From contig NZ_BMFU01000016.1 in assembly GCF_014639235.1 (NCBI RefSeq), positions 1 to 32,000 of the forward strand: 32,000 bases of DNA, given 5' to 3'. The position numbers and the translations under genes are program-made. The notes under the pieces were generated by a model. That model searched no databases. It was not told the origin of the DNA and saw only the letters and a program-made list of their open reading frames with translations. The DNA comes from Paenibacillus silvae. GTDB taxonomy: Bacteria > Bacillota > Bacilli > Paenibacillales > Paenibacillaceae. Of the stretch, positions 1-18,143 are shown one piece after another. Within the stretch, counting starts at the first letter, position 1, and each line of letters opens with the position of its first letter.

Positions 1-197
1 GCGAAGAAAACAAGTATTCGGTATTAGCTACCGTTTCCGGTAGTTGTCCCAAGCTTGAGGGCAGGTTGCCTACGTGTTACTCACCCGTCCGCCGCTAAGT
101 ATCAAGGAAGCAAGCTTCCTATCCACTCCGCTCGACTTGCATGTATTAGGCATGCCGCCAGCGTTCGTCCTGAGCCAGGATCAAACTCTCCAATAAA
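1..197 (-). rRNA. rrs: 16S ribosomal RNA, 5' end only (gene continues off the left edge)
   Basis: Reverse complement of 1-197 reads TTTATTGGAGAGTTTGATCCTGGCTCAGGACGAACGCTGGCGGCATGCCTAATACATGCAAGTCGAGCGGAGTGGATAGGAAGCTTGCTTCC...GGGTGAGTAACACGTAGGCAACCTGCCCTCAAGCTTGGGACAACTACCGGAAACGGTAGCTAATACCGAATAC. This is the universal 5' end of bacterial 16S rRNA, with V1/V2 regions of Paenibacillus type. Confidence 0.97.
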
Positions 198-2497: not shown

Positions 2498-2517
2498 ATG
2501 TGCTTAGCCTGCTCCTC

Positions 2518-2583
2518 TTCGTAGCCAGATCATTAGGGTGATCTCGTAGAGACTCCCGGGCCATATCCCCAGGATTATACGAA
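2518..2583 (-). promoter_or_regulatory. purine riboswitch aptamer, guanine/hypoxanthine class
   Basis: Minus strand: UUCGUAUAAUCCUGGGGAUAUGGCCCGGGAGUCUCUACGAGAUCACCCUAAUGAUCUGGCUACGAA. P1 is UUCGUA/UACGAA, P2 is CCUGGG/CCCGGG with a GAUAUGG loop, J2/3 is AGUCUCUAC, and P3 is AGAUCA/UGAUCU with a CCCUAA loop. The specificity position in J3/1 (GGCU) is C, as in the xpt guanine riboswitch. Confidence 0.9.
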
Positions 2584-2616
2584 TTAGTATGCGCTATTTG
2601 TTTGTTTCCCATCACC

Positions 2617-4961: not shown

Positions 4962-5151
4962 CTACTCCCACTCGATCGTTGCAGGTGGTATGGAGGTTAC
5001 GTCATAGACAATACGGTTTACGTTGTCTACTTCGTTAACGATACGTACAGAGATTTTCTCCAATACGTCCCAAGGGATACGTGCCCAGTCGGCAGTCATA
5101 CCATCGATGGAAGTCACGGCGCGAATACCTACAGTGTAGGAGTAGGTGCGT
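4962..5151 (-). pseudogene. guaA: displaced 3'-terminal fragment of guaA (last 62 codons plus stop); distal att-type direct repeat of the islet
   Basis: Aligns without gaps to 9822-10011 at a constant offset of 4860 nt. It translates to [62 protein letters not shown], one residue different from the intact guaA C-terminus. There is no upstream coding continuation. Confidence 0.88.
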
Positions 5152-5240
5152 ATTATAGAGTTAATTACTATTCATTTTCCACGTTGTTCGGTATTTCAAT
5201 TGTAGCGGGTGAAATGACCAATTTCAATAGCTATTTAGAT

Positions 5241-5264
5241 GAAAATCCTCGTCATATGACGAGG
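5241..5264 (-). terminator. candidate terminator of the thsB'-thsA-thsB operon
   Basis: Perfect palindrome CCTCGTC-ATAT-GACGAGG (5247-5264), followed on the minus strand by ATTTTC, 47 nt after the thsB stop. Confidence 0.45.
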
Positions 5265-5310
5265 CAGATGCGGCTGTATACTTACAAAATGTTCTTCATG
5301 TCAAAGAGGT

Positions 5311-5943
5311 TCACCAGAACGAAAATAAATCTTTTTTTACAGTCTTGGTGATGTTAAATTCATTTATTCGCTTACTTTTCTCATAAGCATTTTCAATATA
5401 TTTTTCGGGTTCGGACAAAAAATCCTTTTCGTTGATTAAAGCTATATACGATCCTTCTAAACTATTTACAGTCTCACATTGTGGACATGTAAATTCCGGG
5501 TCTTTGCGGTTAAATCTATTGTTGTTGATTATTTCGTACATCAAATCTTTATCTAGGTACCTATACCGGCAACCATCCGATGTAGTTATATATTTTTCAA
5601 TCCAATTAGTACTTCCATTGACCTCCTGAATTACACCTACAATTCCATTACTTCCCGAGGTACGGTCTTCTCTAGTAGTATTCTTGAGAGAATATTCAAG
5701 TTCCCAATCAATCCATTTACTCAGCTTTATATTCGGGGATATAACAACAATAGTAACAGAAGTATCAAAAATCATTTTTTTTAAATGATTTTTGATTGTA
5801 TCCGTCTTTCTATCTGTCAAGTCAGGCGAAGCACTGGTTTCCCCTTGATAAAAACGAGCATCATCACCAAGTGCTTTGATAATTCGATCTCTCGTTCCCT
5901 TCGCTTCACTGTATTTGTACGAAACAAATGTCTTTCGTGCCAT
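5311..5943 (-). CDS. thsB: Thoeris ThsB-type TIR-like protein (DUF1863/MTH538 TIR-like fold)
   Basis: 210 aa. MARKTFVSYKYSEAKGTRDRIIKAL...SVTIVVISPNIKLSKWIDWELEYSL matches the hallmark layout of ThsB (compare B. cereus ThsB MAKRVFFSFHY...RWVRYEIMKS), including the conserved Glu after the W-x-x-W/Y element. A GGGGGTG Shine-Dalgarno lies 7 nt upstream. The gene starts 18 nt downstream of thsA. Confidence 0.8.
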   Translation of the reverse strand: MARKTFVSYKYSEAKGTRDRIIKALGDDARFYQGETSASPDLTDRKTDTIKNHLKKMIFDTSVTIVVISPNIKLSKWIDWELEYSLKNTTREDRTSGSNGIVGVIQEVNGSTNWIEKYITTSDGCRYRYLDKDLMYEIINNNRFNRKDPEFTCPQCETVNSLEGSYIALINEKDFLSEPEKYIENAYEKSKRINEFNITKTVKKDLFSFW

Positions 5944-5961
5944 GTATCACACCCCCTGCTA

Positions 5962-7416
5962 TTACTTTTTTCTTTTTTCAAGCATATTCACAATTTCAAT
6001 TACAGTGTTAATCAATGCTTCGTCAGTCTGATTCACATCGCCCAGCAATTGATATTTATCTTTCAGCTCAGCATCTGGAACATACCGGTCAAAATCATTA
6101 AAAACAGTCTCCCATATTTTTTTAGCAGTAAAGTCCGTCGCACCAATGGGAATAGGTATTACGCCGTGATTCACGCTTATTTCAAACTCTTCAATCATGC
6201 CATTTGCTTCTATTACAGCACCTGTTGAACCATCGATTTTATTGCCAAACATGAAGACGGAAATCCCAACGTTTTGAATCATGTTATTTCTGTGTTTAGT
6301 CCATAATTCCTTTATAGGGATTTGACCAGTAGTATTTTGAGGAAAAGGTCTCGAAATCAGACGTTCTTCTACCCGCTGACTTCTCGTTTTATAGATTTCC
6401 TCCAGCGCACCCGAGATTACACAACTGCCGACTCCAAGACCAAAACCAGTTACAATATTGTTCCCGTTTTTGATTACCGCTTTACTGAGGTTGCTCGCGA
6501 ACTCTAAGCAGCGCTGCTCTCCCCAATTTCCATAGTCAGAGGCACTACCGGAAATAAATAAATTTCTTCTCTTATATTGCTGTTCCACTTCCTTGAGTAT
6601 GGCCGTTATATCCTCATATTGATTTACCAATAGCACTTTAATGCTATATCTTTTCAGATCATTCACTTTTAACTTCTGCTTTATCTCAGCATATAAAAAG
6701 TCCGACTCTTCCTTGAAATCACCTCGTTGCACTTGCTTCATAAAACAATAATGTGTGCGTTGATTCTGACCCAATAGGATTCTTATACGACTCAAAATAT
6801 ATTCCAAGTTGGGATCATCAAAACTAAATCCAATAAACAACATTGTTTTTGAAACGAGGTCTCCTTGAAGAGCCGTTGTAAATAACTGCCGCTTGTTGTT
6901 GTAATTTTCATAATCATCTTTAGTTAAAACGGCTTCATGAGGCAATGAAATATCCCCATGCATTTTATAAATCTTGGCATCACTATTCGGTTTTGTTACC
7001 GCTAGGTTTTCGGTCGTTATTTTCGAGTCGATTCTTTTTCCTTCAATCTTCAAGGCTTCCTCGATTAGATCATCATAGTTGGTTGTCCAATATGTATCTA
7101 TAGGCAGCCTTGCTAAAATTTTATGATTTTCGGTGATTTCGGCATCCTTTGTAAATTCGTCAATTAATGCTTGATTTATTTTCCCTCTATTTCCACCGTT
7201 CTCATTAACATGGTACTGCGCTACTGCTATAAGGTCACTTTCTTTATCAATATTTAAATTAATTTCTTCAGCGATATCTCGAAGCAGTTCCTTCCAGTTC
7301 ACAAATCCCGCAGGTTTAGACAATCCTGCGCCCGCAAATACAGCCGCATTAGACTCCTCAATAGCAGTTTTAAAAGTTTTCAGAAACTCCGCTATTTCTT
7401 TGCTCACCAGTTTCAT
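5962..7416 (-). CDS. thsA: Thoeris ThsA: N-terminal SIR2-family NADase plus C-terminal SLOG signal-sensor domain
   Basis: SIR2 motifs are AAVFAGAGLS, ENHKILARLPIDTYWTTNYDDLIE, KMHGDISLPHEAVLTKDDY and LFIGFSFDDPNLEYILSRIR. SLOG motifs are LFISGSASDY...IVTGFGLGVGSCVISGALEE...RPFPQ. By recollection it is collinear over its full length with Bacillus cereus MSX-D12 ThsA. The start is ambiguous: TTG 7431 (ORF track), ATG 7416 (matches homologue length), or GTG 7407 (best spacing to GAGGAGG). Confidence 0.9.
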   Translation of the reverse strand: MKLVSKEIAEFLKTFKTAIEESNAAVFAGAGLSKPAGFVNWKELLRDIAEEINLNIDKESDLIAVAQYHVNENGGNRGKINQALIDEFTKDAEITENHKILARLPIDTYWTTNYDDLIEEALKIEGKRIDSKITTENLAVTKPNSDAKIYKMHGDISLPHEAVLTKDDYENYNNKRQLFTTALQGDLVSKTMLFIGFSFDDPNLEYILSRIRILLGQNQRTHYCFMKQVQRGDFKEESDFLYAEIKQKLKVNDLKRYSIKVLLVNQYEDITAILKEVEQQYKRRNLFISGSASDYGNWGEQRCLEFASNLSKAVIKNGNNIVTGFGLGVGSCVISGALEEIYKTRSQRVEERLISRPFPQNTTGQIPIKELWTKHRNNMIQNVGISVFMFGNKIDGSTGAVIEANGMIEEFEISVNHGVIPIPIGATDFTAKKIWETVFNDFDRYVPDAELKDKYQLLGDVNQTDEALINTVIEIVNMLEKRKK

Positions 7417-7427
7417 CCTCCTCAAAT

Positions 7428-7940
7428 TCAAGATTCAAACCAATTGGCTAAATGAACCCCTCGTGATTCCCCTTGTTTTATAACATACCAGTTGCCATCA
7501 TATGATTGTTCAATATAGTTGTAGATTCCATAGTATTCTCGCTCGTCCCATGTTCCTTCATTTTTCACAAGCGGAAGAATTGCAATTTTATTTAGACCCT
7601 TTACACCATCGGCTAGCCCAAGCTCCCATGGTATCCAAATTGATCGAATACTCCCTGGTGTCGCCAGCAGTACAAATTTATTAGAGCGGTTGATTCTTTG
7701 TTTCAGCTTCTGGGCCGTCTCAGACGATGTTTGGCTAGGCATACTATGGTCAAGCCAGTCAACATAAGTTCTTTGGCCGAATTGCGCCAAAAAACCTACT
7801 GCCTGTTTTACTTCCTGCTCGTCATCATGACGATGGGACAAGAAAACCGTATTTGAAGTACTGAATTGGTAATTTTCATTAAGAGACTTTTGAATCGACT
7901 GAGACATATTGTTCAACTTATTGAATGTTAGGTACGACAT
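7428..7940 (-). CDS. thsB: TIR-domain protein, second and divergent Thoeris ThsB
   Basis: 170 aa. It has canonical bacterial TIR motifs: VFLSHRHDDEQEV (start of beta-A), KFVLLATPGSIRSIWIPWELGLA (conserved W-x-W-E catalytic-Glu element). A GAGGAGG Shine-Dalgarno lies 6 nt upstream. Its stop is 11 nt before the thsA ATG and overlaps the alternative TTG. Confidence 0.82.
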   Translation of the reverse strand: MSYLTFNKLNNMSQSIQKSLNENYQFSTSNTVFLSHRHDDEQEVKQAVGFLAQFGQRTYVDWLDHSMPSQTSSETAQKLKQRINRSNKFVLLATPGSIRSIWIPWELGLADGVKGLNKIAILPLVKNEGTWDEREYYGIYNYIEQSYDGNWYVIKQGESRGVHLANWFES

Positions 7941-7981
7941 AGAAATCCTCCTCTTTTCGACTGTTGGCTATACTTACTCAA

Positions 7982-8011
7982 ATGATATTGTTCATTGGAA
8001 AGTCATTACAA
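7982..8011 (-). promoter_or_regulatory. candidate sigma-A promoter of the Thoeris operon
   Basis: Minus strand: TTGTAA (8011-8006), 18 nt, TATCAT (7987-7982), about 40 nt upstream of the thsB' start. Only moderately close to consensus. Confidence 0.3.
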
Positions 8012-8165
8012 TTCTATTATCGCTAATCACCTTATCTTTGAAAAGGGCAAAAGTATTACGACATTTGATTCTCTTGGTCCATAAATAGTGCTAAAACTGA
8101 CTCCATATAGATTAAGGATTAAAATAAAAGTATGTAAAAATACATTCTTTTATGGGGTGCACTTC

Positions 8166-8717
8166 ATGCAAAGACTAAGTGTTAACGAAAGGTCAAACCA
8201 TCTGTTCAATTTACTGAGCTTTGCCGTGAGTGAACATGATATTGCCCGAATCCTTCGCGCCAACGTATCCCTCATTTTCAAAGAAGTGGTCAACCAGACG
8301 AACGAGATTGCCATCCCCTATGTCGGCAAGTTTACCTTTAAGGAGTTTACGGGAAGGAAAATTAATGCGGTACACGGCGAAACGGTGAAGCAGCGGGATT
8401 TTGTGAAGACAAAATTCGAGCTTGGTAAATATATCAAACGACTGAATGTGAATCGGGATTTTTTTAACCGCATTGAAATTGATGCTGATTCTTTGAAACC
8501 CTGCATCGTGTTCAATACCAAAGCAGTCGCAATTCGTTCCGGCCAAGAGGACTTGATCGGCTGTATAGCACCGTCTACCAGAGTCGAGTTGTTCAATGAG
8601 GAGCAACTGTCAACCTTCACTACCGATATGCAACAGCTCTCTTCATCGAATCCTAAAACCTATGACGACATTAAGCCATTCATTCAAACCATACTCACTT
8701 TCGAGGAGTGGATTTAA
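8166..8717 (+). CDS. hypothetical protein with an N-terminal HU/IHF-like DNA-binding fold
   Basis: The N-terminal ~90 aa (NHLFNLLSFAVSEHDIARILRANVSLIFKEVVNQTNEIAIPYVGKFTFKEFTGRKINAVHGETVKQRDFVKTKFELGKYIK) follow the HU/IHF pattern: helix-helix, then I-x-G-F-G-x-F...R-x-x-x-N-P-x-T-G-E-like arm, then K-F-x-x-G-K. The C-terminal ~95 aa are unrecognised. The ATG at 8166 has a GGGGTG Shine-Dalgarno 6 nt upstream; the ORF track starts at GTG 8088. Confidence 0.5.
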   Translation: MQRLSVNERSNHLFNLLSFAVSEHDIARILRANVSLIFKEVVNQTNEIAIPYVGKFTFKEFTGRKINAVHGETVKQRDFVKTKFELGKYIKRLNVNRDFFNRIEIDADSLKPCIVFNTKAVAIRSGQEDLIGCIAPSTRVELFNEEQLSTFTTDMQQLSSSNPKTYDDIKPFIQTILTFEEWI

Positions 8718-8720
8718 GCA

Positions 8721-8828
8721 ATGAAAACCAAAAACAAATCCGAACAGCAAATCAAACAGGAGCAAGCGTACCAAGCATTTATGCTGCGAGCAGCCGATTT
8801 ACTGAAGGCATATCATCAGGGAGGATAA
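8721..8828 (+). CDS. possible 35-aa micro-ORF (MKTKNKSEQQIKQEQAYQAFMLRAADLLKAYHQGG)
   Basis: The ATG lies 3 nt after the stop of the HU-like gene. The nearest GGAG is 13 nt upstream, which is a long spacing. No recognisable family. Confidence 0.22.
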   Translation: MKTKNKSEQQIKQEQAYQAFMLRAADLLKAYHQGG

Positions 8829-8834
8829 CCGGAA

Positions 8835-8924
8835 ATGACGAACGAAACAACAGTAAAAATTAAACGCCAACTGCTTACCCTGCATTACAATGTCATGAAT
8901 GCAACGCAAAGTGGGGACATTTGA
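8835..8924 (+). CDS. possible 29-aa micro-ORF (MTNETTVKIKRQLLTLHYNVMNATQSGDI)
   Basis: A GGAGGA Shine-Dalgarno lies 9 nt upstream of the ATG. No recognisable family. Its end coincides with the truncation point of the integrase remnant on the other strand. Confidence 0.3.
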   Translation: MTNETTVKIKRQLLTLHYNVMNATQSGDI

Positions 8925-9662
8925 GCGTCCCTGCGCTCCATAAACTAATGTCGGACAAACGCCCTCTGAACGCTTTGTACAAAGCGACAAGAGAGTTTAG
9001 TGGTATGGGGTTGGCTCGATTGTGTAGTAGACAAGCGGAAAAACAAGATTTTTGCATTAACCTCCCGCGTTTGATCTTCAACCCGTTCAGCGGACTATTT
9101 AGCCGTCCAATATTCAGGATGTCCTCCTGCTCAAGCCCCTTAAATATTTTGAAGTGATCTGTGTATCGAAATGCCCCTCAGGCGACTAGGCTGTAGACAT
9201 CAATTCCATTAACCCCTGTATCGAAGAGCATAATGAGAATCAGCTTGTCCCTGACATTGGAATAAGTCTCTTCTTTCAGGTCATTGATAATCCGCGACAC
9301 TTTTCGTCGTTGAATGTAACAATAACGGTCTTCTCTTCCTTGAGATTCCTAATACGGCGCTTCGGATTACTTTGCTCGTCGATAAATTCTTCGTTAACAA
9401 TGTACTGGAAAAATACCTTCAGGGTCGCAAGGTTGTTATTCAATGTTCGGTTGACTTCACGCCCTAAACGTTGCCGCTCCTGAATATACTTTTTGATGTG
9501 AAGCTGACTTACATCCTCCACTTCTACAATCCCTAATTCTTTCTCCATTAACCTTTCCCAACGTTATAAGCGGAACATCCACAAATCAACATACTTCTTC
9601 ACACGACCCAAAATCTCTTGATTGAGCCTGAAATCCTGAAGCAATTCCTTAATTTTAGTCAT
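8893..9662 (-). pseudogene. int: tyrosine recombinase/integrase, frameshifted and 3'-truncated
   Basis: Minus-strand pieces lie in three frames. They are MTKIKELLQDFRLNQEILGRVKKYVDLWMFRL*; then MEKELGIVEVEDVSQLHIKKYIQERQRLGREVNRTLNNNLATLKVFFQYIVNEEFIDEQSNPKRRIRNLKEEKTVIVTFNDE (SAM-like N-terminal core-binding domain); then SRIINDLKEETYSNVRDKLILIMLFDTG (start of the catalytic domain with the first Arg region); then stops; then ...GTLKCPHFALHS* (H-x-L-R-H-like box). The C-terminal His/Tyr region is absent. Confidence 0.75.
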
Positions 9663-9763
9663 AAAAAATACTCCCTTCTATTTGCTGAACAACGCAGATA
9701 AAAGAGAGTGATTTTTAGCACTCTATAGTTGCACGTCAACTGGAAATCATTATGTAGCTAACA

Positions 9764-9794
9764 CCGAAAATCCTTATGTATCAAGGATTTCCGG
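9764..9794 (-). terminator. hairpin downstream of intact guaA
   Basis: Minus strand: CCGGAAATCCTT-GATACAT-AAGGATTTTCGG, 28 nt after the guaA stop. Only a weak T-tract follows. Confidence 0.4.
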
Positions 9795-9821
9795 CATTTG
9801 GCTACATCATTTCAATCCAAT

Positions 9822-11360
9822 TCACTCCCACTCAATAGTTGCAGGTGGTTTGGAAGTTACGTCATAGACGATACGGTTTACGTTGTCTACTTCGTTAACG
9901 ATCCGTACGGAGATTTTCTCCAGTACATCCCAAGGGATACGTGCCCAGTCGGCCGTCATGCCATCGATGGATGTTACAGCACGAATACCTACTGTGTAGG
10001 AATACGTACGTGCGTCACCCATAACACCAACACTCTTCATGTTAGGCAGGGCTGTAAAGTATTGCCAGATTTCGCGGTCAAGACCGGCTTTGGCAATTTC
10101 TTCACGCAGGATGTAGTCGGAATCACGCACGATTTTCAGCTTCTCTTCCGTTACTTCGCCAAGCACACGGATCGCAAGACCCGGACCAGGGAAAGGCTGA
10201 CGGTGTACAATTTCGTCCGGCAAGCCGCATTCCGTACCTACTTTACGCACTTCGTCCTTGAACAGTGTGTTCAAAGGTTCGATTAGCTTGAAGTTCATGT
10301 CTTCTGGCAGACCGCCCACGTTGTGGTGGGATTTGATCGTCTGTGCTGTAGCTGTACCACTCTCTACGATGTCTGTATACAGCGTACCTTGCGCCAGGAA
10401 TTCAAAATCATCGAACTGCTTGGACTCTTCATCAAATACGTAAATAAACTCGTTACCGATAATTTTACGTTTTTGCTCTGGATCATCCACGCCAGCTAGT
10501 TTGGACATGAAGCGTTCTTTGGCATCGATTTTGACAACCTTCATATCGAATTTGCCAACAAATGTCTCCATAACACTCTCTGCTTCGCCTTTACGCAGCA
10601 GACCATGGTCGATGAACATACATGTCAGCTGATCCCCGATTGCTTTATGCAGCAATGCCGCAACAACGGAGGAATCCACCCCGCCGCTGAGAGCACACAG
10701 CACTTTGCCGTCGCCCACTTTTTCACGAATATCTCTAATCGTATCATCAATGAATGTTTCCATCGTCCAGTTGCCTTCGCAACCGCAGATTTCAAACAGG
10801 AAGTTACGAATCATATCGTTACCGCGAACAGAGTGACGTACTTCCGGGTGGAACTGAACTGCATACAATTTGCGCTCGTCATTGCTCATTGCAGCGATTG
10901 GCGCACTTTCCGTGCCTGCATCCAGTTTGAAGCCCGGAGGCAATGTAACAACGTGGTCACCATGACTCATCCATACGGTATGTTCGCCTTCAATGCCTTT
11001 AGCCAGTACAGCACCTTCAGCAAACGCCAGATCAGCTTTACCATATTCACGCTTCTCGGAGCGCTCTACTTTACCGTCAAGCTGTTGAGCCATCAGCTGC
11101 ATTCCATAACAAATGCCGAAGATTGGCAAGCCCAGGTCATAAACACCCGGATCAACGTGTGGTGCATTTTCAGCATATACGCTGGATGGGCCGCCGGAGA
11201 ATACAATCCCTTTTGGTGCAAGCTCCGCAATTTTCTCCGCTGGTGTGTTATACGGCAAAAGCTCGCTGTATACGCCAAGATCCCGGATTCTTCTGGCGAT
11301 TAACTGGTTGTATTGGCCTCCAAAGTCAAGGACAACCACAATTTCATTCTGCTTATTCAT
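9822..11360 (-). CDS. guaA: GMP synthase (glutamine-hydrolysing)
   Basis: 512 aa. N-terminal class-I glutamine amidotransferase ([33 protein letters not shown] nucleophile Cys), ATP-pyrophosphatase P-loop SGGVDSS, and C-terminal dimerisation domain ending PPATIEWE. Confidence 0.97.
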
Positions 11361-12060: not shown

Positions 12061-12256
12061 CTAACGATCCCAAACAACCTTATTTCTACCTTTTGACGGG
12101 GTTTGAAAATCTAACGAATCGTAGAAACGCTATTGGAACGAAAACTCACCATTTTGGGCTAAAAACACGGCATTTCAAGTAAATAAGGTTTCTGGGAATC
12201 GTTACGTCTGCAGCATGTCCAAAAAGAGTTAAATAGCGTCACTAGGAATCGTTAAC
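12061..12256. repeat. four copies (two forward, two inverted) of a ~25-nt motif, TAACGAWTCC-N-AGAAAC-N-TATT
   Basis: Forward copies: CTAACGATCCCAAACAACCTTATTTCTAC (12061) and CTAACGAATCGTAGAAACGCTATTG (12111). Inverted copies: AGTAAATAAGGTTTCTGGGAATCGTTACG (12179) and TTAAATAGCGTCACTAGGAATCGTTAAC (12229). Copies of like orientation are 50 nt apart. Each forward copy lies 118 nt from the corresponding inverted copy. Confidence 0.7.
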
Positions 12257-12412
12257 CGTAATAAGGCCCAAACTCTTGAACCTTTCCTGCACAAGCTCTA
12301 CCCACTCGTTAAAATTCAACATATGTTCCAACTTTCTGTGCCACCCTCCACCTGCAGGCTGTAAAAGTATGAGGCAGGCCCCTTCTCTTTCAGACATGTT
12401 AGAACGGTGTAG

Positions 12413-12526
<114 letters not shown>

Positions 12527-12667
12527 GCAGCCTGTCTCGGTGAGATGTTGTAAAAGCCGCGGAGGCTGGAGACATTGGAAAGATTCAACTAACAAGCGCA
12601 TTCCTTGTTTGTCGTTGATCGTATTATGGCGGGAGGTTGAGACTATACGGTATTTCATGCTTATATG

Positions 12668-12707
12668 TTGAAAAGGGTCCCGCTCACCCTTTGGGCAAGC
12701 GGGACCC
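12668..12707 (-). terminator. rho-independent terminator of the MoxR-DUF58-transglutaminase operon
   Basis: Minus strand: GGGTCCCGCT-TGCCCAAAGGGTG-AGCGGGACCC (10-bp perfect GC-rich stem) followed by TTTTCAAC, 64 nt after the stop at 12771. Confidence 0.75.
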
Positions 12708-12770
12708 GTTGCTCTGCCAGCGCTGTTTTGCACGCTGGCAACAGGTTATTATGAGACGCTGGCGCAGGGA

Positions 12771-15674
12771 TTAGCGCTGGCGTCCGGGGATGCGCCGGGT
12801 CAGGCGAAGCGCCCGGCGCAGGAAGTCGAGACTGTCCGCGCGCAGCGGACGGTCAGGGCCATACAGCAGCCGCTCCCAGTCGGCTGCAAAGCGCGCGATG
12901 TCCGCGCCGTCCGTGCCCGCGGCCACGGCGGGTGACGCTGCGTATTCCCGCAGCGTCATGCCCGGCGGCCGCGGGCCGTACCGGCGCGCAAGCGCGTGCC
13001 AGACCGGAGCGGCAGCCTGCAGCAGCCGCTCGCGGTCCGGGAAGCTGCTGCGCGGCCATGCCAGCAGCAGCCTGAGCCGCAGCGCAGGGCGAAGCCGCCT
13101 CGCGCTGGCCCATGCAGCGGCGCACAGCATCGCCGCTGCGGCTATTGCCGCGGCAGGCCATGGCGCCGCGGCCAATCCCCGTGCGCGCGCAGCCAGCCAC
13201 GCGCCCGCACGGTCCATTCCGCTGCCTGCACCCGGCAGCGGGGACCCATCGCCGGGCTGCAGCCCGGCGGAAGCCGTAGCGCTGGCATCACCCGCCTGCG
13301 CTGCATCAAACCCCGGCGTAGCCTCAAAAGGCATCCAGCCCACGCCGGGAAAATACACCTCCACCCAGGAATGGGCATCAGCCTGGGTGACAATGACACG
13401 CCCGGGGACCTGCGGGTCCGCTTGTCCGGGGGCGTAACCCTTCACCCAGCGTGCCGGAATGCCTTCAGCACGCAGCAGCACAACCATGGCGGTAGAGAAA
13501 TGGTTACAATATCCCGCCCGGGTTACAAACAGAAAATCATCAACAAAATCCCTGCCTCGCGGCGGCATCCGGGTATCCAGCGAGTAACGGGCATGCGCTT
13601 GCAAATAGCTGCGTACAGCTTGTACAGCGTCGTACCGCGTTTCACTCGTACCCATAATCTCGGCAGCCAGGTCCTTAACACGCTGCGGAAGCGTATCCGG
13701 CAGCTGCAAATCCTTTCTGCGGATGGAAGCCGGATCGACTAAATTCCCTTTGTTCCCGCCACTACCCTCCTGCACGCCTAGGCCGCCATCCTTCTTATCC
13801 GAGCCGGTGCTGCCTGTATCAGCGAGTACAATATCCATCTTCGCGTTCAAACCTGCATGCTGCTGTTCTTCCCCGCCATCGCCCCATTTCTCTGAACCCG
13901 CACGTTTTGTCTCATCATTCCTACTTTGCTTCTTATCCAAGCCCATGCTTCTTGTCGCAGCGAGCGTAATATCCACATTCTCGTTCAAACCAGCATACTG
14001 ACGTTCTACCCAACTCTCGCTCCACTTCTCTGTACCAGCACGTTTGGCCCCATCATAATCAATACTTTCCTCCTGAACCATACTCGCAGTTTGCTGTTCT
14101 TTAGCACCATTACCACTTAGGCCAACGTACTTTTCATCCCCACTAACGTAAATCCCGTCCACGCTAGTGCTCTTTGTCCTGTCTGAACCCGCATTTTTCA
14201 TTCTGTCCATACCCGCGCTCTGCCGAAGCACGTCTGGAGTTACATCCGGCACCATCACATCGACGGTGTAGTGCTGTACACGGGTCTGCCGATCCCCACC
14301 ACCCGCAAGCCACAAGGTACCTGTATCTTCACTCGACAGCAGTCGTTTCTCATTCTTGCCGTTAAGCGCGTTGCCATCTTGAAAAGACAAGCTTACCGGC
14401 AGACCTCCCGCAAACAGCGGATTAGGTGCTCGCCATTCCCTCTCCATCGTGATGATCTGACGAACCCTCTTCCAGTGCGGGTGCTCCTCCCATCCATCCG
14501 ATCGCAGCATTCCCGAGGAGTCTGCATAATGGAATCGCTGCTCCACATCACTCCATGCACTTCCGTTGTAATACGAGCGGGTTTCCCCGCGCCAATACGT
14601 AGATACAGGGGTGCTTGCGGTAAACACCGGCTCATTCCCCTGTACCAGCGGAGCCCCCATTGGTGCATCGACCGTGCTGTAGCCCGTCATACTCAAGGAG
14701 GCAGGGATACTTCCCGAAGGTGTATATCCTGCCCATTTAGCCAAACGTTCGACCGTGTCCATGACAGAAATATGCCTCGCAGGCGACACAACATTCATAC
14801 GTGCCGGAAGCATGGATATGAGGACCAGACAGGCAGTAGCTCCTAATGACACAGCAATCCAAGCCATACGTACCCTTCTTCGCATTGGACGGGAATTGTT
14901 CTTTTCACTTCTCGCCATCTTCCGATGTGTTCGATGAACAGCCCCATGTATATCCTGCGATTCCCTTACTGCTGCATCTCGCACCGCCGCTTCATGACCT
15001 GTCCCTTCAGAAAGCCGCAGCAGATACAGCAGACCTTGAATGGACAAGAGCCAGCATACAGAGCGCAACACCGAGCCATATGCCTCATATCCGACCAGAC
15101 TTTCCAGTAGAATCAGATAAACTAATGTGCCTGTACCAAACAACGAAATGCTGCGGCGCAGCAATACAAGGTACTGCACCGAAGCAAGCAGCATACTCCA
15201 GCCGCACAGCATAAACAAACCTCTCGTCTCACGGCTCATGACACGAAAACGGCCTTTGTCGATCCATTCGCCAAGATCGGCATTAAGCATGCCAGGGTAG
15301 GCTGTGCCCCACTCGAACGGATGACTGGCTCCATACATCAGACACAACGCAGCATAGATGAGCGGAAGGCGAATAAGAATACTGGCAACCCAGCCGGTTC
15401 TGTACAGGCCAACCGACAGCAAAACTGCCGAATAACCCGCCATTACCGCAGCGAATCGCTCACTGCCAATCTGACCGGAAGAAGTAACAGGATAGATCCA
15501 TTCCATGCATAAAAGGAACAGCCCCGCTGTAATCAGCCACAGATACAGAGCAGGTGCAGTTCCCTGGGCGGAGGAAGATAATGGCGATATCCCCTCCATA
15601 CGGTGGCCCTTGATCGTCTGCCCGGTAAAAGATACTGAGTCAGCTTCGTTCCTCTTGTTACGCTCCCACATCAA
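12771..15674 (-). CDS. transglutaminase-like membrane protein (YebA/TgpA-like, with DUF4129-like Ala/Arg-rich C-terminus)
   Basis: 967 aa. It has an N-terminal multi-TM region and a transglutaminase core: GYCNHFSTAMVVLLRAEGIPARWVKGY...DAHSWVEVYFPGVGWMPFEATPG (Cys-His-Asp triad context). It overlaps the DUF58 gene by 17 nt. Its position after MoxR and DUF58 and before guaA matches B. subtilis yebA. Confidence 0.9.
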   Translation of the reverse strand: MMWERNKRNEADSVSFTGQTIKGHRMEGISPLSSSAQGTAPALYLWLITAGLFLLCMEWIYPVTSSGQIGSERFAAVMAGYSAVLLSVGLYRTGWVASILIRLPLIYAALCLMYGASHPFEWGTAYPGMLNADLGEWIDKGRFRVMSRETRGLFMLCGWSMLLASVQYLVLLRRSISLFGTGTLVYLILLESLVGYEAYGSVLRSVCWLLSIQGLLYLLRLSEGTGHEAAVRDAAVRESQDIHGAVHRTHRKMARSEKNNSRPMRRRVRMAWIAVSLGATACLVLISMLPARMNVVSPARHISVMDTVERLAKWAGYTPSGSIPASLSMTGYSTVDAPMGAPLVQGNEPVFTASTPVSTYWRGETRSYYNGSAWSDVEQRFHYADSSGMLRSDGWEEHPHWKRVRQIITMEREWRAPNPLFAGGLPVSLSFQDGNALNGKNEKRLLSSEDTGTLWLAGGGDRQTRVQHYTVDVMVPDVTPDVLRQSAGMDRMKNAGSDRTKSTSVDGIYVSGDEKYVGLSGNGAKEQQTASMVQEESIDYDGAKRAGTEKWSESWVERQYAGLNENVDITLAATRSMGLDKKQSRNDETKRAGSEKWGDGGEEQQHAGLNAKMDIVLADTGSTGSDKKDGGLGVQEGSGGNKGNLVDPASIRRKDLQLPDTLPQRVKDLAAEIMGTSETRYDAVQAVRSYLQAHARYSLDTRMPPRGRDFVDDFLFVTRAGYCNHFSTAMVVLLRAEGIPARWVKGYAPGQADPQVPGRVIVTQADAHSWVEVYFPGVGWMPFEATPGFDAAQAGDASATASAGLQPGDGSPLPGAGSGMDRAGAWLAARARGLAAAPWPAAAIAAAAMLCAAAWASARRLRPALRLRLLLAWPRSSFPDRERLLQAAAPVWHALARRYGPRPPGMTLREYAASPAVAAGTDGADIARFAADWERLLYGPDRPLRADSLDFLRRALRLTRRIPGRQR

Positions 15675-17154
15675 CGATCCCCGCCTTCCCGCCGAGCAAA
15701 GTGCTGTTTGTCGCGATGGCTTCCTGACAGATCACACGTACACCCTTGGCTGCGAGACGGTCAGTCCATACTTGCAGCTGCTGCGCCCTTGCGGACGAAC
15801 CAGAAGCAGCCGAAGATGTATAGCCTGCGTTTATACCCGCTTCTGTTCGGAGTCGCTCTATCGTTTCCCCTTGTTCTGTCGGCCGTTTCCCTTCAAGCCG
15901 ATCTGTTCGCAAGGAAAACGCCAATCTCCCCTCGGCATGTTCTGAAGCTCCATAAGTGACGACAGGATGCTGCACTGCTTGACTTCCCGTTAGATGTACA
16001 CTGACCTGAAAGCCAAGCGTAGCAGCGTGTTCAAGCCAGCCAACCAGCCTTTCATCCAGCTGTCCAGTGAAAATAACGATGCTTGAACCGTACGAAAGCT
16101 GCTCCAGCCTGCTAACATCCAGCATAGATGAAGCCTCCGGCTGCTCTTTGCACAATCGGGCATACGCCAGTCGCCGTAATGCGTCGGCCATACCTTCATC
16201 AGCGCCACCATACCCTCGTCGCACGTCACCCGCAGCAGAGCTATGATTCGTACTGCCTTGTTTCCTTGACAGCTCTCCCCGCTCCACAGTTCTGTTTGCT
16301 CTGCTGCTCAGCTCATCTCCACTTAACCAGAGTTGGCAAGGCATCTGCGCATCGTCCGCCTCTTTGAGCCAGCTGGCAGCGCCACGCACTGCCTGTTCAA
16401 ATGCTTCATGCGCCTGACCCTCCGACTCGTTGTCTTCGTAACCCGAGCTTTCCTCGTAAACGATAATGGCCAGCGAGGTGCGCTGTGAAATTTCGGGAAT
16501 CAGCGTGTGCAGTCTTCCGGTCCGGGCGGTGCTCTTCCAATGGATCCGGTTAAATGCATCTCCCTGCTGATATTCCCGAATTTCTAGTCCAGGCGGTCCC
16601 AGCAGCTGTGAATGCACCACCCTACCTTCTCCATGGCTCCCCCAACTCTCAGGCCAGATCGATACCTCGCTATATCCGCCATCTGGTACGACTACAAGCG
16701 GCTCTTCACCTTCCAGAAGGGCACAGGCCTTGCTCCATCCAAAAACGTCGCCCCAATATATTCGTCCTTCCTCCCACACATGCACGCCACGAGCAAGCCC
16801 CGTGATCTCGTATTGATAAGACCATTGTCTCTTCATGCCGGGAAAAAGCAGCTTGCGATGCACCCCTGCGGGTGTATTGTCGCAAACGACCAGCCATAGC
16901 AGCGGAAGGGCACAGCGGAATTCCAGATGCACCTGAACCCGCAAGCTCTCACCTGCCACAATATGCCCCGGACGTCTATGCCGTTGTATATGAACTTGAC
17001 GAGGACCGAAGAGCTGCAGAACAATTCCGTATATTACAACCAGAACCGATATGGCAGCCAGGAATAAAGTGGATTTTCCTCCGTGCCACAGATACACGCC
17101 GATTAGAAGAATCGCTATCAGCACTTGAGCTGCGCTTCCGCGAATGCCACTCAT
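15658..17154 (-). CDS. DUF58-domain protein (YeaD-like, vWA-related partner of MoxR)
   Basis: 498 aa with two N-terminal TM helices and the DUF58 signature LEIREYQQGDAFNRIHWKSTARTGRLHT. A 4-nt ATGA overlap with the MoxR stop indicates translational coupling. Confidence 0.85.
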   Translation of the reverse strand: MSGIRGSAAQVLIAILLIGVYLWHGGKSTLFLAAISVLVVIYGIVLQLFGPRQVHIQRHRRPGHIVAGESLRVQVHLEFRCALPLLWLVVCDNTPAGVHRKLLFPGMKRQWSYQYEITGLARGVHVWEEGRIYWGDVFGWSKACALLEGEEPLVVVPDGGYSEVSIWPESWGSHGEGRVVHSQLLGPPGLEIREYQQGDAFNRIHWKSTARTGRLHTLIPEISQRTSLAIIVYEESSGYEDNESEGQAHEAFEQAVRGAASWLKEADDAQMPCQLWLSGDELSSRANRTVERGELSRKQGSTNHSSAAGDVRRGYGGADEGMADALRRLAYARLCKEQPEASSMLDVSRLEQLSYGSSIVIFTGQLDERLVGWLEHAATLGFQVSVHLTGSQAVQHPVVTYGASEHAEGRLAFSLRTDRLEGKRPTEQGETIERLRTEAGINAGYTSSAASGSSARAQQLQVWTDRLAAKGVRVICQEAIATNSTLLGGKAGIVDVGA

Positions 17155-18143
17155 GCCCTGCGTCCCCTTCCTTGTCCGCCCATCTGTACAGGCACCGGCA
17201 CGGAAGATAATACTTCACGGATGACCTGCTCCTGTACCTCACTGCTGTCGGCTCTGTTTACCAATTTCAGCTGGATCCGATGAGATAGCACTGGCACGGC
17301 GAGGGATTGCACATCATCCGGTACAACGTAGCTGCGTCCCTGCGCATAGGCATATGCCTGCGCTGCTGTCATCCATGCCAGCGTTCCCCTTGGACTGATA
17401 CCCAGCCGTACCGCATCATGTGCTCTCGTAGCTACAGCTACACCTACAAGATATTGCTTGATCACTGTATCCACGTGCACCTGCCTGACTTCACGCTGCA
17501 TCGCCACAACTTCCTCGGCCAGCATTATCGGATGCATATTCTCCAGCATCTCCTGGCTCCGCACTCGAGACAGCAGCTCTACTTCCTGCTCAGGCTCAGG
17601 ATATCCCAGCGTGATCCGCATCATAAACCGGTCCAGCTGCGCTTCAGGCAGACGATATGTGCCTTCGAATTGAAGCGGGTTCTGCGTTGCCAGCAGCAGA
17701 AACGGTCTGGGCAATGTATGGGTCGTACCATCCACAGTCACGCTGCGCTCCTCCATCGCTTCCAATAAAGAAGACTGCGTCCGCGGGGAAGCACGGTTAA
17801 TCTCATCTGCGAGCACAATATTGTTCATCAGCGGCCCGGGTCTGAATCTGAACTCTCCTGCCTGTACATGATATATGGATACTCCCGTTACATCGGCTGG
17901 CATCACATCTGGCGTGCACTGGATACGCCCCATAGCACAATTTAACGAAGAAGCCACCGTACGGATCAGCATCGTTTTGCCAGTGCCCGGCACATCCTCA
18001 AGCAGCACATGACCTTCACTAAGCATAGCGGCGATAATATATTGAATTTCCTGTTTCTTGCCGATGATGACATCGGCAATTCGATTGCCAAGCCTGTTCA
18101 ACAGTTCAACAGCATATTCATGCTCTATTCGAATCTTGCTCAT
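17151..18143 (-). CDS. MoxR-family AAA+ ATPase (YeaC-like)
   Basis: 330 aa. Motifs: HVLLEDVPGTGKTML (Walker A), VLADEINRASPRTQSSLLEAMEE (Walker B/sensor), and the LATQNP motif typical of the AAA_3/MoxR family. Confidence 0.92.
   Translation of the reverse strand: MSKIRIEHEYAVELLNRLGNRIADVIIGKKQEIQYIIAAMLSEGHVLLEDVPGTGKTMLIRTVASSLNCAMGRIQCTPDVMPADVTGVSIYHVQAGEFRFRPGPLMNNIVLADEINRASPRTQSSLLEAMEERSVTVDGTTHTLPRPFLLLATQNPLQFEGTYRLPEAQLDRFMMRITLGYPEPEQEVELLSRVRSQEMLENMHPIMLAEEVVAMQREVRQVHVDTVIKQYLVGVAVATRAHDAVRLGISPRGTLAWMTAAQAYAYAQGRSYVVPDDVQSLAVPVLSHRIQLKLVNRADSSEVQEQVIREVLSSVPVPVQMGGQGRGRRA

What the first reader, a model, noticed from the sequence alone, without database searches (positions are those of the whole stretch)
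5311..7940. TIR / SIR2-SLOG / TIR-like three-gene operon: a Thoeris-type NAD+-depletion anti-phage system with two unrelated TIR sensors
Seen in sequence:
- Three co-directional minus-strand genes have 11-nt and 18-nt gaps. Each has its own Shine-Dalgarno. There is one candidate promoter upstream (7982-8011) and one hairpin downstream (5247-5264).
- The middle protein has a SIR2-family domain (AAVFAGAGLS, WTTNYDD, KMHGDIS, FIGFSFDDPN) fused to a SLOG-type domain (LFISGSA...GFGLGVGS...PFPQ). By recollection it is collinear with Bacillus cereus MSX-D12 ThsA. The Asn of TTNYD and the His of MHGD, which are catalytic in characterised ThsA, are both present.
- The flanking genes encode two different TIR folds. 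One is a canonical 170-aa TIR (FLSHRHDD...WIPWELG). The other is a 210-aa DUF1863/ThsB-type TIR-like protein (FVSYKYS...WIDWELEYS) with a Cys-containing C-terminal extension (FTCPQCE).

Established knowledge: in Thoeris, a TIR protein senses infection and makes a cyclic ADP-ribose isomer. That signal binds the ThsA SLOG domain and switches on the SIR2 NADase, causing abortive infection. Multiple thsB genes per locus are thought to broaden phage recognition.

Inference: this is a functional defence module carried as the only intact cargo of a small integrated islet. The bracketing arrangement thsB'-thsA-thsB with two very dissimilar TIRs, and the translational coupling of thsB' to thsA, are the unusual points. 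If Thoeris is set aside as already described, this is still the one locus in the window that looks like a dedicated conflict system.
Basis: partly seen in the sequence, partly recalled or inferred. Interest (0 to 1): 0.85.

Follow-up and report, generated by a model that had tools for sequence, protein, structure and literature searches.

The report
Ordinary type I Thoeris defence operon
This is a standard type I Thoeris anti-phage system (an NAD-destroying enzyme flanked by two TIR sensor genes) on a decayed mobile islet in a Paenibacillus genome, and its gene layout is common rather than unusual.

Summary
The three minus-strand genes exist exactly as described. They are thsB' (7940-7428), thsA (7407-5962) and thsB (5943-5311).

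Profile searches identify a type I Thoeris system. ThsA has SIR2 and STALD/SLOG domains (PADLOC ThsA 1e-207) and is 50% identical to crystallised B. cereus ThsA. All catalytic and 3'cADPR-pocket residues are conserved. Both flanking proteins are TIR proteins with the W-x-x-x-E catalytic motif.

The operon lies in a 4.7-kb islet inserted into the 3' end of guaA. The evidence is a 188-nt direct repeat, an integrase remnant and an empty site in a related genome.

The claimed unusual feature, TIR-ThsA-TIR bracketing, is not unusual. It occurs intact in 14 of 43 related loci across Bacillota and Bacteroidota. The B. cereus model system also has ThsB' next to thsA.

The one extra observation is that the operon is a recombinant. 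Its thsB'/SIR2 half matches one Paenibacillus lineage and its thsB half matches another.

Verdict: a correctly identified, ordinary member of a well-characterised system, of low interest.

The parts
7428..7940 (-). thsB' gene: a 170-aa bare TIR protein (TIR_2 type) with putative cyclisation Trp W102 and catalytic Glu E106.
   Evidence: The ORF is. Pfam TIR_2 scores 5.9e-09 and PADLOC ThsB PDLC00436 scores 3.2e-50 over the full length. PDB 8btn scores 2.6e-18, and identity to B. cereus ThsB' is 31%. F33, L34, S35, H36, W102, W105, E106 and G108 are invariant in 16 family members. dN/dS is 0.05-0.13.
5962..7407 (-). thsA gene: a SIR2-SLOG/STALD NADase effector of 481 aa from GTG 7407. Alternative starts are ATG 7416 and TTG 7431.
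   Evidence: Pfam SIR2_2 scores 2.4e-31 and STALD 1.1e-73. PADLOC ThsA scores 1.4e-207. PDB 6lhx scores 2.5e-148 and identity to BcThsA is 50%. The equivalents of N112 and H152 and of pocket residues G289, S290, L326, Q359, R371, K388, G399 and E403 are all conserved (read). dN/dS is 0.07-0.13.
5311..5943 (-). thsB gene: a 210-aa ThsB_TIR (DUF1863-type) protein with a variable C-terminal half, Trp W77 and catalytic Glu E81.
   Evidence: Pfam ThsB_TIR scores 3.8e-10 and PADLOC ThsB PDLC00428 scores 2.1e-81. PDB 9vyl 'TIR1' scores 8.8e-20 over the full length. E81 is invariant and F6, S8 and W77 are near-invariant in 21 members. dN/dS is 0.09-0.11.
7947..7953 (-). Shine-Dalgarno GAGGAGG of thsB', 6 nt before the ATG.
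   Evidence: Read directly from the sequence.
7417..7423 (-). Shine-Dalgarno GAGGAGG of thsA. It lies 9 nt before GTG 7407 and directly abuts ATG 7416.
   Evidence: Read directly from the sequence.
5952..5956 (-). G-rich Shine-Dalgarno-like run (GGGGG) 8 nt before the thsB ATG.
   Evidence: Read directly from the sequence.
5247..5264 (-). Terminator-like hairpin (7-bp stem with 5 G-C pairs, followed by ATTTTC) downstream of thsB.
   Evidence: Found by the terminator scan. It is the local stem in the MFE fold, but the fold z-score is only -0.72.
7982..8011 (-). Candidate sigma-70-type promoter at 9 of 12 matches. It is unverified and promoter-like hits here are not above chance.
   Evidence: 13 promoter-like sites found against 11.0 +/- 3.1 in shuffles.
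5152..9823 (.). Integrated islet of about 4.7 kb with low G+C (about 0.37-0.42) that carries the Thoeris operon. It is absent from the empty site of a related genome.
   Evidence: L001 has an identical GuaA protein, and guaA is followed directly by the GntR gene with no islet. The island terminus 5152-5231 is conserved in L003, L005 and L006.
9824..10011 (-). The present 3' end of guaA (last 61 codons), brought in by the island. It is copy 1 of the direct repeat.
   Evidence: It is 90% identical over 188 nt to 4964-5151. Its downstream sequence differs from the empty site.
4964..5151 (-). The displaced native guaA 3' end, now a pseudogene fragment. It is copy 2 of the direct repeat.
   Evidence: The repeat is. 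The fragment hits Pfam GMP_synt_C at 2.2e-23. Its downstream flank matches empty-site L001.
9178..9662 (-). Frameshifted and truncated remnant of a tyrosine integrase (N-terminal SAM-like part only).
   Evidence: The 90-aa ORF at 9276-9548 hits Phage_int_SAM_1 at 2.6e-4 and PHROG_1 integrase at 1.2e-6. The neighbouring short ORFs are listed.
8088..8717 (+). Intact 209-aa ORF of unknown function, divergent from thsB'. It is island cargo, not part of Thoeris.
   Evidence: It is 87% identical at the protein level to its counterpart in L002-L004 and 71% in L005, and it is absent from L007 and L008. Its only family hit is a sub-threshold HU-like match (Bac_DNA_binding 1.1e-3). It has no PADLOC or PHROG hit.

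Best explanation
This is a type I Thoeris abortive-infection system.

Proposed mechanism:
1. On phage infection, one or both TIR proteins (ThsB' and ThsB) become active.
2. The active TIR converts NAD+ into the cyclic ADP-ribose isomer 3'cADPR.
3. The signal binds the conserved pocket of the ThsA SLOG domain.
4. ThsA tetramers assemble into filaments, which switches on the SIR2 NADase.
5. The cell is drained of NAD+, so the phage cannot replicate.

The two TIRs most likely act as independent sensors that add to each other's phage range.

Shown here: the domain architecture, the conservation of every catalytic and ligand-contact residue, purifying selection on all three genes, and the genomic context as cargo of a decayed island that targets guaA.

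Inferred from characterised homologues: the identity of the signal, filament activation, NAD+ depletion and sensor independence.

The confidence of 0.85 is for the type I Thoeris identity and mechanism. The independence sub-claim alone is about 0.65.
For: Domains and family membership:
- SIR2_2 plus STALD; PADLOC ThsA 1.4e-207; PADLOC ThsB 3.2e-50 and 2.1e-81.
- end-to-end alignment with BcThsA 6lhx. N112 and H152 are conserved (their roles). All 3'cADPR contacts (G289, S290, L326, Q359, R371, K388, G399, E403) are conserved (listed).
- each TIR has a solved-structure relative (9vyl 'TIR1' at 8.8e-20; 8btn ThsB' at 2.6e-18).
- a W-x-x-x-E motif is present, with invariant Glu E106 in ThsB' and E81 in ThsB.
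- dN/dS is 0.05-0.13 for all three genes.

Support for independent sensors:
- B. dafuensis TIR1 or TIR2 each works alone with ThsA, and their phage ranges are additive.
- In close Paenibacillus relatives, one thsB or the other has decayed while thsA and the remaining thsB stay intact. L005 has a stop codon in thsB', L006 has a truncated thsB', and L008 has a thsB riddled with stops.
- The two sensor genes reassort independently.
Against: - No experiment exists for this locus.
- The promoter is only a weak consensus match, not above chance.
- The carrying islet is decayed.
- In S. aureus type I Thoeris the two ThsBs cooperate: ThsB1 binds capsid protein and recruits the cyclase ThsB2. Independence therefore cannot be assumed.
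- In the 43-locus sample, the ThsB' type never appears as the only intact TIR where the contig allows a judgement. The ThsB_TIR type often appears alone. This asymmetry is not statistically significant.
- NCBIfam has no ThsA or ThsB model that these proteins reach.
Confidence: 0.85

Rival explanations
1. ThsB' and ThsB form an obligate sensor-cyclase pair, as in S. aureus Thoeris. One binds a phage protein such as the major capsid protein and recruits or activates the other, which makes the signal.
For: Roberts et al. 2025 describe this for Sau-ThsB1/ThsB2, and a ThsB1-ThsB2-capsid complex for S. equinus. The TIR_2-type plus ThsB_TIR-type pair recurs around thsA across phyla. ThsB' is never the sole intact TIR in the sample.
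Against: - The streptococcal ThsB1 is a long protein with its catalytic Glu at residue 336. The streptococcal homologues in my sample are 310-388 aa. ThsB' here is a bare 170-aa TIR.
- Both TIRs here keep the catalytic Glu and Trp.
- Single-gene decay in L005, L006 and L008 leaves the partner intact.
- The two genes reassort between lineages.
- A relative of ThsB (9vyl, deposited as 'TIR1', presumably the B. dafuensis TIR1) works alone with ThsA in B. dafuensis.
- The co-occurrence asymmetry is compatible with chance, with a probability of about 0.15 under independence.
Confidence: 0.2
2. The operon is a silent or non-functional remnant carried along with a dead mobile element.
For: The integrase is reduced to a frameshifted N-terminal remnant and the island interior is deleted compared with L003. 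The promoter is not verified. Relatives carry thsB or thsB' pseudogenes.
Against: All three ORFs are intact with Shine-Dalgarno sites. Every catalytic and ligand residue is conserved. dN/dS is 0.05-0.13. ThsB' is 100% identical in three other assemblies.
Confidence: 0.07
3. One of the TIR proteins makes a different signal or acts as a stand-alone NADase effector, not as an activator of ThsA.
For: TIR domains of other Thoeris types make His-ADPR or N7-cADPR. ThsB' has a weak NCBIfam hit to a type III Thoeris TIR protein (5e-05, far below the cut-off).
Against: The only effector in the islet is a SIR2-SLOG ThsA with the complete 3'cADPR pocket. The solved relative 8btn is the ThsB' encoded beside B. 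cereus thsA. From my own recollection of Tamulaitiene et al. 2024, which is not in the library, that protein synthesises 1''-3' gcADPR in vitro.
Confidence: 0.05

Closest known systems
Bacillus cereus MSX-D12 type I Thoeris (ThsA 6LHX/8BTO, ThsB 6LHY/9B7D, ThsB' 8BTN). It is represented here by the essentially identical locus on B. thuringiensis plasmid pSCG61 (L051).
   Same: ThsA has the same SIR2-SLOG architecture and is 50% identical. All catalytic and 3'cADPR-pocket residues are conserved. A ThsB'-family TIR lies on the 5' side of thsA and a DUF1863/ThsB_TIR-type TIR lies on the 3' side.
   Different: In B. cereus, ThsB' is transcribed divergently from thsA and sits about 490 nt away. Here it is co-directional and 20 nt (or 11 nt) upstream. 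ThsB' is only 31% identical. The downstream ThsB belongs to a different ThsB subfamily, with 27% identity over the TIR core only (E 0.006).
Bacillus dafuensis FJAT-25496 Thoeris (ThsA with TIR1 and TIR2; Ofir et al. 2021)
   Same: One thsA is accompanied by two mutually very divergent TIR genes that were shown to be independent and additive specificity determinants. The window's ThsB aligns over its full length with PDB 9vyl, named 'Putative cyclic ADP-D-ribose synthase TIR1' (8.8e-20).
   Different: The gene order there is thsA-TIR1-TIR2, with both TIRs downstream. Here the TIRs bracket thsA. That 9vyl is the B. dafuensis protein is inferred from its name only.
Staphylococcus aureus 08BA02176 and Streptococcus equinus type I Thoeris (ThsA-ThsB1-ThsB2; Roberts et al. 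2025)
   Same: It is a type I system with two ThsBs of different types. Streptococcal loci in my sample have a ThsB'-related TIR upstream of thsA and a homologue of the window's ThsB, about 28% identical, downstream.
   Different: ThsB1 there is long (catalytic Glu at 336 in Seq-ThsB1) and binds the phage capsid protein, and the two ThsBs cooperate. ThsB' here is a 170-aa bare TIR.
Other SIR2 NADase defence proteins (DSR1, DSR2, SIR2-HerA, KomC)
   Same: They share the SIR2 NADase fold. The ThsA N-terminal domain hits them at 1e-12 to 1e-14.
   Different: They lack the SLOG signal-receptor domain and TIR partners. They are activated by direct protein sensing, not by a TIR-made nucleotide.

Membership tests
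Type I Thoeris | The effector ThsA has an N-terminal SIR2 domain and a C-terminal SLOG (STALD) domain. | tested here: met
   Pfam SIR2_2 covers residues 113-235 (2.4e-31) and STALD covers 274-482 (1.1e-73). PADLOC ThsA1 matches over the full length at 1.4e-207. 6lhx scores 2.5e-148.
Type I Thoeris | The SIR2 catalytic Asn and His (BcThsA N112, H152) are present. | tested here: met
   They align with the N of TTNYD and the H of KMHGD, which are N110 and H150 in the 481-aa numbering. Their roles are described.
Type I Thoeris | The SLOG pocket residues that contact 3'cADPR (BcThsA G289, S290, L326, Q359, R371, K388, G399, E403) are present. | tested here: met
   All eight are identical in the alignment. 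The residue list comes from Manik et al..
Type I Thoeris | At least one TIR-domain thsB gene lies adjacent to thsA. | tested here: met
   There are two: TIR_2 (5.9e-09) upstream and ThsB_TIR (3.8e-10) downstream. Their PADLOC ThsB scores are 3.2e-50 and 2.1e-81.
Type I Thoeris | The TIR catalytic Glu is present, together with the Trp four residues upstream that is linked to cyclisation. | tested here: met
   ThsB' has WIPWE (W102, E106) and ThsB has WIDWE (W77, E81). The Glu is invariant in both family alignments.
Type I Thoeris | Phage-triggered 3'cADPR synthesis, ThsA filament formation, NAD+ depletion and phage protection occur. | not testable with these tools
   This needs cloning, phage challenge, LC-MS and NADase assays.
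Type I Thoeris (NCBI curated naming) | The proteins reach an NCBIfam ThsA or ThsB model above its curated cut-off. | tested here: not met
   No NCBIfam Thoeris type I model was hit. The only hits were sub-threshold Dsr2, Dsr1 and ThcB4 matches. This reflects the library's coverage and is not evidence against membership.
Cooperative ThsB1/ThsB2 Thoeris (S. aureus type) | ThsB1 has a large region N-terminal to the TIR domain that binds the phage capsid protein. | tested here: not met
   ThsB' is 170 aa with only about 30 residues before the TIR domain. Seq-ThsB1 has its catalytic Glu at 336, and the streptococcal homologues in my sample are 310-388 aa.
Site-specific integrative island at the guaA 3' end | There is a direct repeat of the target gene's 3' end, an empty site in a relative, and an integrase next to the target. 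| tested here: met
   The 188-nt repeat is 90% identical. The empty site is L001. The integrase is present only as a truncated remnant, so the element is no longer autonomous.

The most novel reading that the evidence does not exclude
The bracket layout may be functional, not incidental. With the conserved thsA in the middle acting as a homology anchor, recombination inside thsA lets the two flanking sensor genes reassort independently between lineages. That would generate new combinations of phage specificities.

The window's operon is such a recombinant:
- thsB' and the SIR2 half are 97-100% identical to the CP045802.1 lineage, with dS 0.04.
- thsB is 92-95% identical to the Paenibacillus sp. 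1_12 lineage, but has dS about 2.2 against CP045802.1.

The recombination event itself is well supported. That it reflects a general, selected design principle of Thoeris loci is speculative.
Probability: 0.35. Interest if true: 0.35.

Novelty: new member of a known kind. Interest (0 to 1): 0.13.

Why it matters
It matters little beyond annotation. The locus adds an uncharacterised Paenibacillus example to a thoroughly studied defence system that tools such as PADLOC detect automatically.

Three points are modestly useful:
- It gives a clean natural example of sensor-gene reassortment around a conserved effector gene.
- It shows that the 3' end of guaA and the region downstream of it form an insertion hotspot for defence cargo in Paenibacillus.
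- It shows that the ThsB'-type TIR, which is usually ignored in the 'two-gene' description of the B. cereus model system, is a frequent third component.

Tried and rejected
- **E. coli genome search.** A search with the operon found nothing, so the host is not E. coli. The host was identified as Paenibacillus through related loci.
- **Exact-protein look-ups.** ThsA and ThsB were not found. ThsB' and GuaA were found and proved very useful.
- **NCBIfam.** It gave no Thoeris type I hit.
- **Co-occurrence test for dependence of ThsB' on ThsB.** All 23 evaluable ThsB' loci also have a ThsB_TIR gene, but 34 of 37 evaluable loci have one anyway. The probability under independence is about 0.15, so the test is uninformative.
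- **Promoter scan.** Hits were not above chance.
- **Zinc-finger idea for the FTCPQCE region.** Only three Cys are present, and they are conserved only in close relatives. I did not pursue it.
- **Tamulaitiene et al. 2024 (ThsB' biochemistry).** The paper is not in the searchable library. Statements about ThsB' activity rest on my recollection.
- **A role for the 209-aa neighbour in Thoeris.** I rejected this because the gene is absent from L007 and L008 and has no PADLOC or PHROG hit.
Full report
**1. Observation**

The quoted motifs are present.

The gap between thsA and thsB is 18 nt, as stated. That ATG directly abuts the GAGGAGG Shine-Dalgarno at 7423-7417. GTG 7407 lies 9 nt downstream of the Shine-Dalgarno and is the start chosen by gene callers in two related contigs. 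The likelier protein is therefore 481 aa, and the gap is 20 nt.

The hairpin at 5264-5247 is recovered by the terminator scan. The promoter-like site at 8011-7982 is a 9-of-12 match in a region where such matches are no more frequent than in shuffled sequence (13 against 11.0 +/- 3.1).

**2. Identity**

Pfam gives SIR2_2 (2.4e-31) plus STALD/SLOG (1.1e-73) for the middle protein. It gives TIR_2 (5.9e-09) for the upstream protein and ThsB_TIR (3.8e-10) for the downstream protein.

PADLOC gives full-length matches to type I Thoeris ThsA (1.4e-207) and to two different ThsB subfamilies (3.2e-50 and 2.1e-81).

Against solved structures:
- ThsA aligns end to end with B. cereus ThsA 6lhx (2.5e-148; 50% identity).
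- The upstream TIR matches 8btn (2.6e-18; 31% identity).
- The downstream TIR matches 9vyl, 'cyclic ADP-D-ribose synthase TIR1', over its whole length, including the C-terminal extension (8.8e-20).

In the ThsA alignment, the SIR2 residues N112 and H152 are conserved; they are essential for NAD+ cleavage. All eight residues that contact 3'cADPR in the BcThsA SLOG crystal structure (G289, S290, L326, Q359, R371, K388, G399, E403) are also conserved.

Both TIRs carry W-x-x-x-E (W102/E106 and W77/E81). The Glu is invariant across 16 and 21 family members respectively.

The two TIRs are very divergent but not unrelated, with BLASTP E 0.003 over the TIR core. dN/dS is 0.05-0.13 for all three genes.

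The locus is a bona fide type I Thoeris system.

**3. Genomic context**

Related loci show that the host is a Paenibacillus.

A contig from a closely related genome (L001) has flanks 96% identical in DNA and an identical GuaA protein. There, guaA is followed directly by the GntR regulator, SDR and permease genes, with no Thoeris. It is an empty site.

In the window, the last 188 nt of guaA (9824-10011) are repeated at 4964-5151 with 90% identity. The guaA terminator hairpin is repeated as well.

The sequence downstream of the lower copy matches the empty site. The lower copy is therefore the displaced native guaA end, and the currently functional guaA end arrived with the island.

Next to guaA lies a frameshifted N-terminal remnant of a tyrosine integrase. 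The island interior is deleted compared with a larger version in chromosome CP045802.1 (L003).

The islet spans about 5152-9823, is a decayed guaA-targeting element and is no longer autonomous. Apart from Thoeris, it retains one intact 209-aa ORF of unknown function (8088-8717). This ORF is not consistently linked to Thoeris.

**4. Is the bracket arrangement unusual?**

It is not. I fetched 43 loci, one per species, that encode relatives of this ThsA and classified the neighbouring ORFs.

- A TIR_2-type gene directly upstream plus a ThsB_TIR-type gene directly downstream of thsA is intact in 14 loci. These come from Paenibacillus, Bacillus, Streptococcus, Zobellia, Arenibacter, Porphyromonas, Flavihumibacter, Prolixibacteraceae and Dysgonamonadaceae.
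- The same arrangement is present in partly decayed form in 4 more loci.
- Pfam confirms that 15 of 16 upstream neighbours are TIR_2 and 21 of 21 downstream neighbours are ThsB_TIR.

The sample is biased towards relatives of this ThsA, and several loci are from the S. mitis group. The counts therefore show recurrence, not population frequency.

The model system has the same gene content. Plasmid pSCG61 of B. thuringiensis encodes proteins essentially identical to crystallised BcThsA, BcThsB and ThsB'. There, ThsB' sits immediately beside thsA, although it is transcribed divergently.

The literature already states that thsA is often accompanied by multiple, mutually divergent thsB genes.

**5. 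Mechanism**

The mechanism is established for homologues and inferred here. It has four steps:
1. Infection activates a ThsB TIR.
2. The TIR makes 3'cADPR from NAD+.
3. The signal binds the ThsA SLOG pocket.
4. This triggers filament assembly and SIR2 NADase activity, which depletes NAD+ and aborts infection.

The open point is how the two TIRs relate. In B. dafuensis, two divergent TIRs act independently and additively. In S. aureus, ThsB1 binds the capsid protein and recruits the cyclase ThsB2.

I favour independence here, at about 0.65, for four reasons:
- Both proteins retain the catalytic motif.
- ThsB' is a bare TIR that lacks the long N-terminal region of the staphylococcal and streptococcal ThsB1.
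- In close relatives, one sensor or the other has decayed while thsA and the remaining sensor are intact. L005 has an in-frame stop in thsB', L006 has a truncated thsB', and L008 has a thsB full of stops.
- The two sensors reassort between lineages, as described in the next section.

A co-occurrence test for dependence was uninformative.

**6. An added observation: the operon is a recombinant**

Against L003, DNA identity is 97-100% across thsB' and the SIR2 half of thsA. It falls to 86-94% in the SLOG half and to 52-83% in thsB.

Against L005 the pattern is reversed: 65-83% on the left and 92-95% in thsB.

Synonymous divergence between the window and L003 is 0.04 in thsB' but about 2.2 in thsB, while dN/dS stays near 0.1. 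This points to exchange of a pre-existing allele, not to accelerated protein evolution. The crossover lies within thsA.

This fits the view of ThsBs as exchangeable specificity modules. It is of modest interest.

**7. Verdict**

The claimed unusual features are common, and the system is one of the best-characterised signalling defence systems. The locus is an ordinary new member of a known kind and the interest is low.

Noticed in passing
window 4964-5151 and 9824-10011; L007 3715-10773; L030 1-8056: The 3' end of guaA and the region downstream of it look like a recurrent landing site for defence cargo. In P. hunanensis (L007), Thoeris follows an intact guaA directly, and GIY-YIG and Mrr-like nuclease genes lie further downstream. 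In a Clostridia MAG (L030), thsA-thsB also sits just after guaA, with a second guaA fragment nearby.
   Followed up: partly
window 8088-8717 (+): An intact 209-aa ORF is transcribed divergently from thsB'. It is conserved at 87% (L002-L004) and 71% (L005) protein identity beside the same Thoeris module, but it is absent from L007 and L008. Its only family hit is a sub-threshold HU-like (Bac_DNA_binding) match, and it has no PADLOC or PHROG hit.
   Followed up: partly
L005 5471-5983; L006 5685-5983; L008 7440-8150: Close Paenibacillus relatives carry single-gene decay within the operon. L005 has an in-frame stop at codon 46 of thsB', L006 has lost the 5' half of thsB', and L008 has multiple stops and frameshifts in thsB. 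thsA is intact in all three. Sequencing errors were not excluded.
   Followed up: partly
L012 190-561; L031 1820-2191; L032 3488-3859; L039 5619-5990; L040 5618-5989: A conserved 123-aa ORF lies immediately upstream of thsA in Bacteroidota, Campylobacterota and other loci. It scores weakly (56-72 bits) against my iterated ThsB profile. It could be a small TIR-like third component or an artefact of profile drift.
   Followed up: no
window 2502-2602 (-): A purine riboswitch aptamer (Rfam RF00167, 66.7 bits) lies upstream of the xanthine/uracil permease gene at 945-2321. The same element is conserved upstream of the permease in L002 and L005.
   Followed up: partly
window 1-196 (-): The 5' end of a bacterial 16S rRNA gene (Rfam RF00177, 134.9 bits) runs off the window start.
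   Followed up: no
window 12242-18143 (-): An operon-like run on the minus strand contains a MoxR-like AAA ATPase (17151-18143), a DUF58 protein (15658-17154) and a 967-aa transglutaminase-like/DUF4129 protein (12771-15674). It is followed by a Pro-rich ORF with a weak TonB-like match (12242-12733). G+C rises sharply to 0.62-0.67 at about 12.5-14 kb.
   Followed up: no
window 5484-5627 (thsB residues about 105-155): The middle and C-terminal part of ThsB is the most variable segment of the whole operon, at 50-58% DNA identity to L003, L006 and L008. It contains three Cys (DGC...CPQC) that are conserved only among close relatives. It is a candidate specificity region, and there is no evidence for a full zinc site.
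   Followed up: partly
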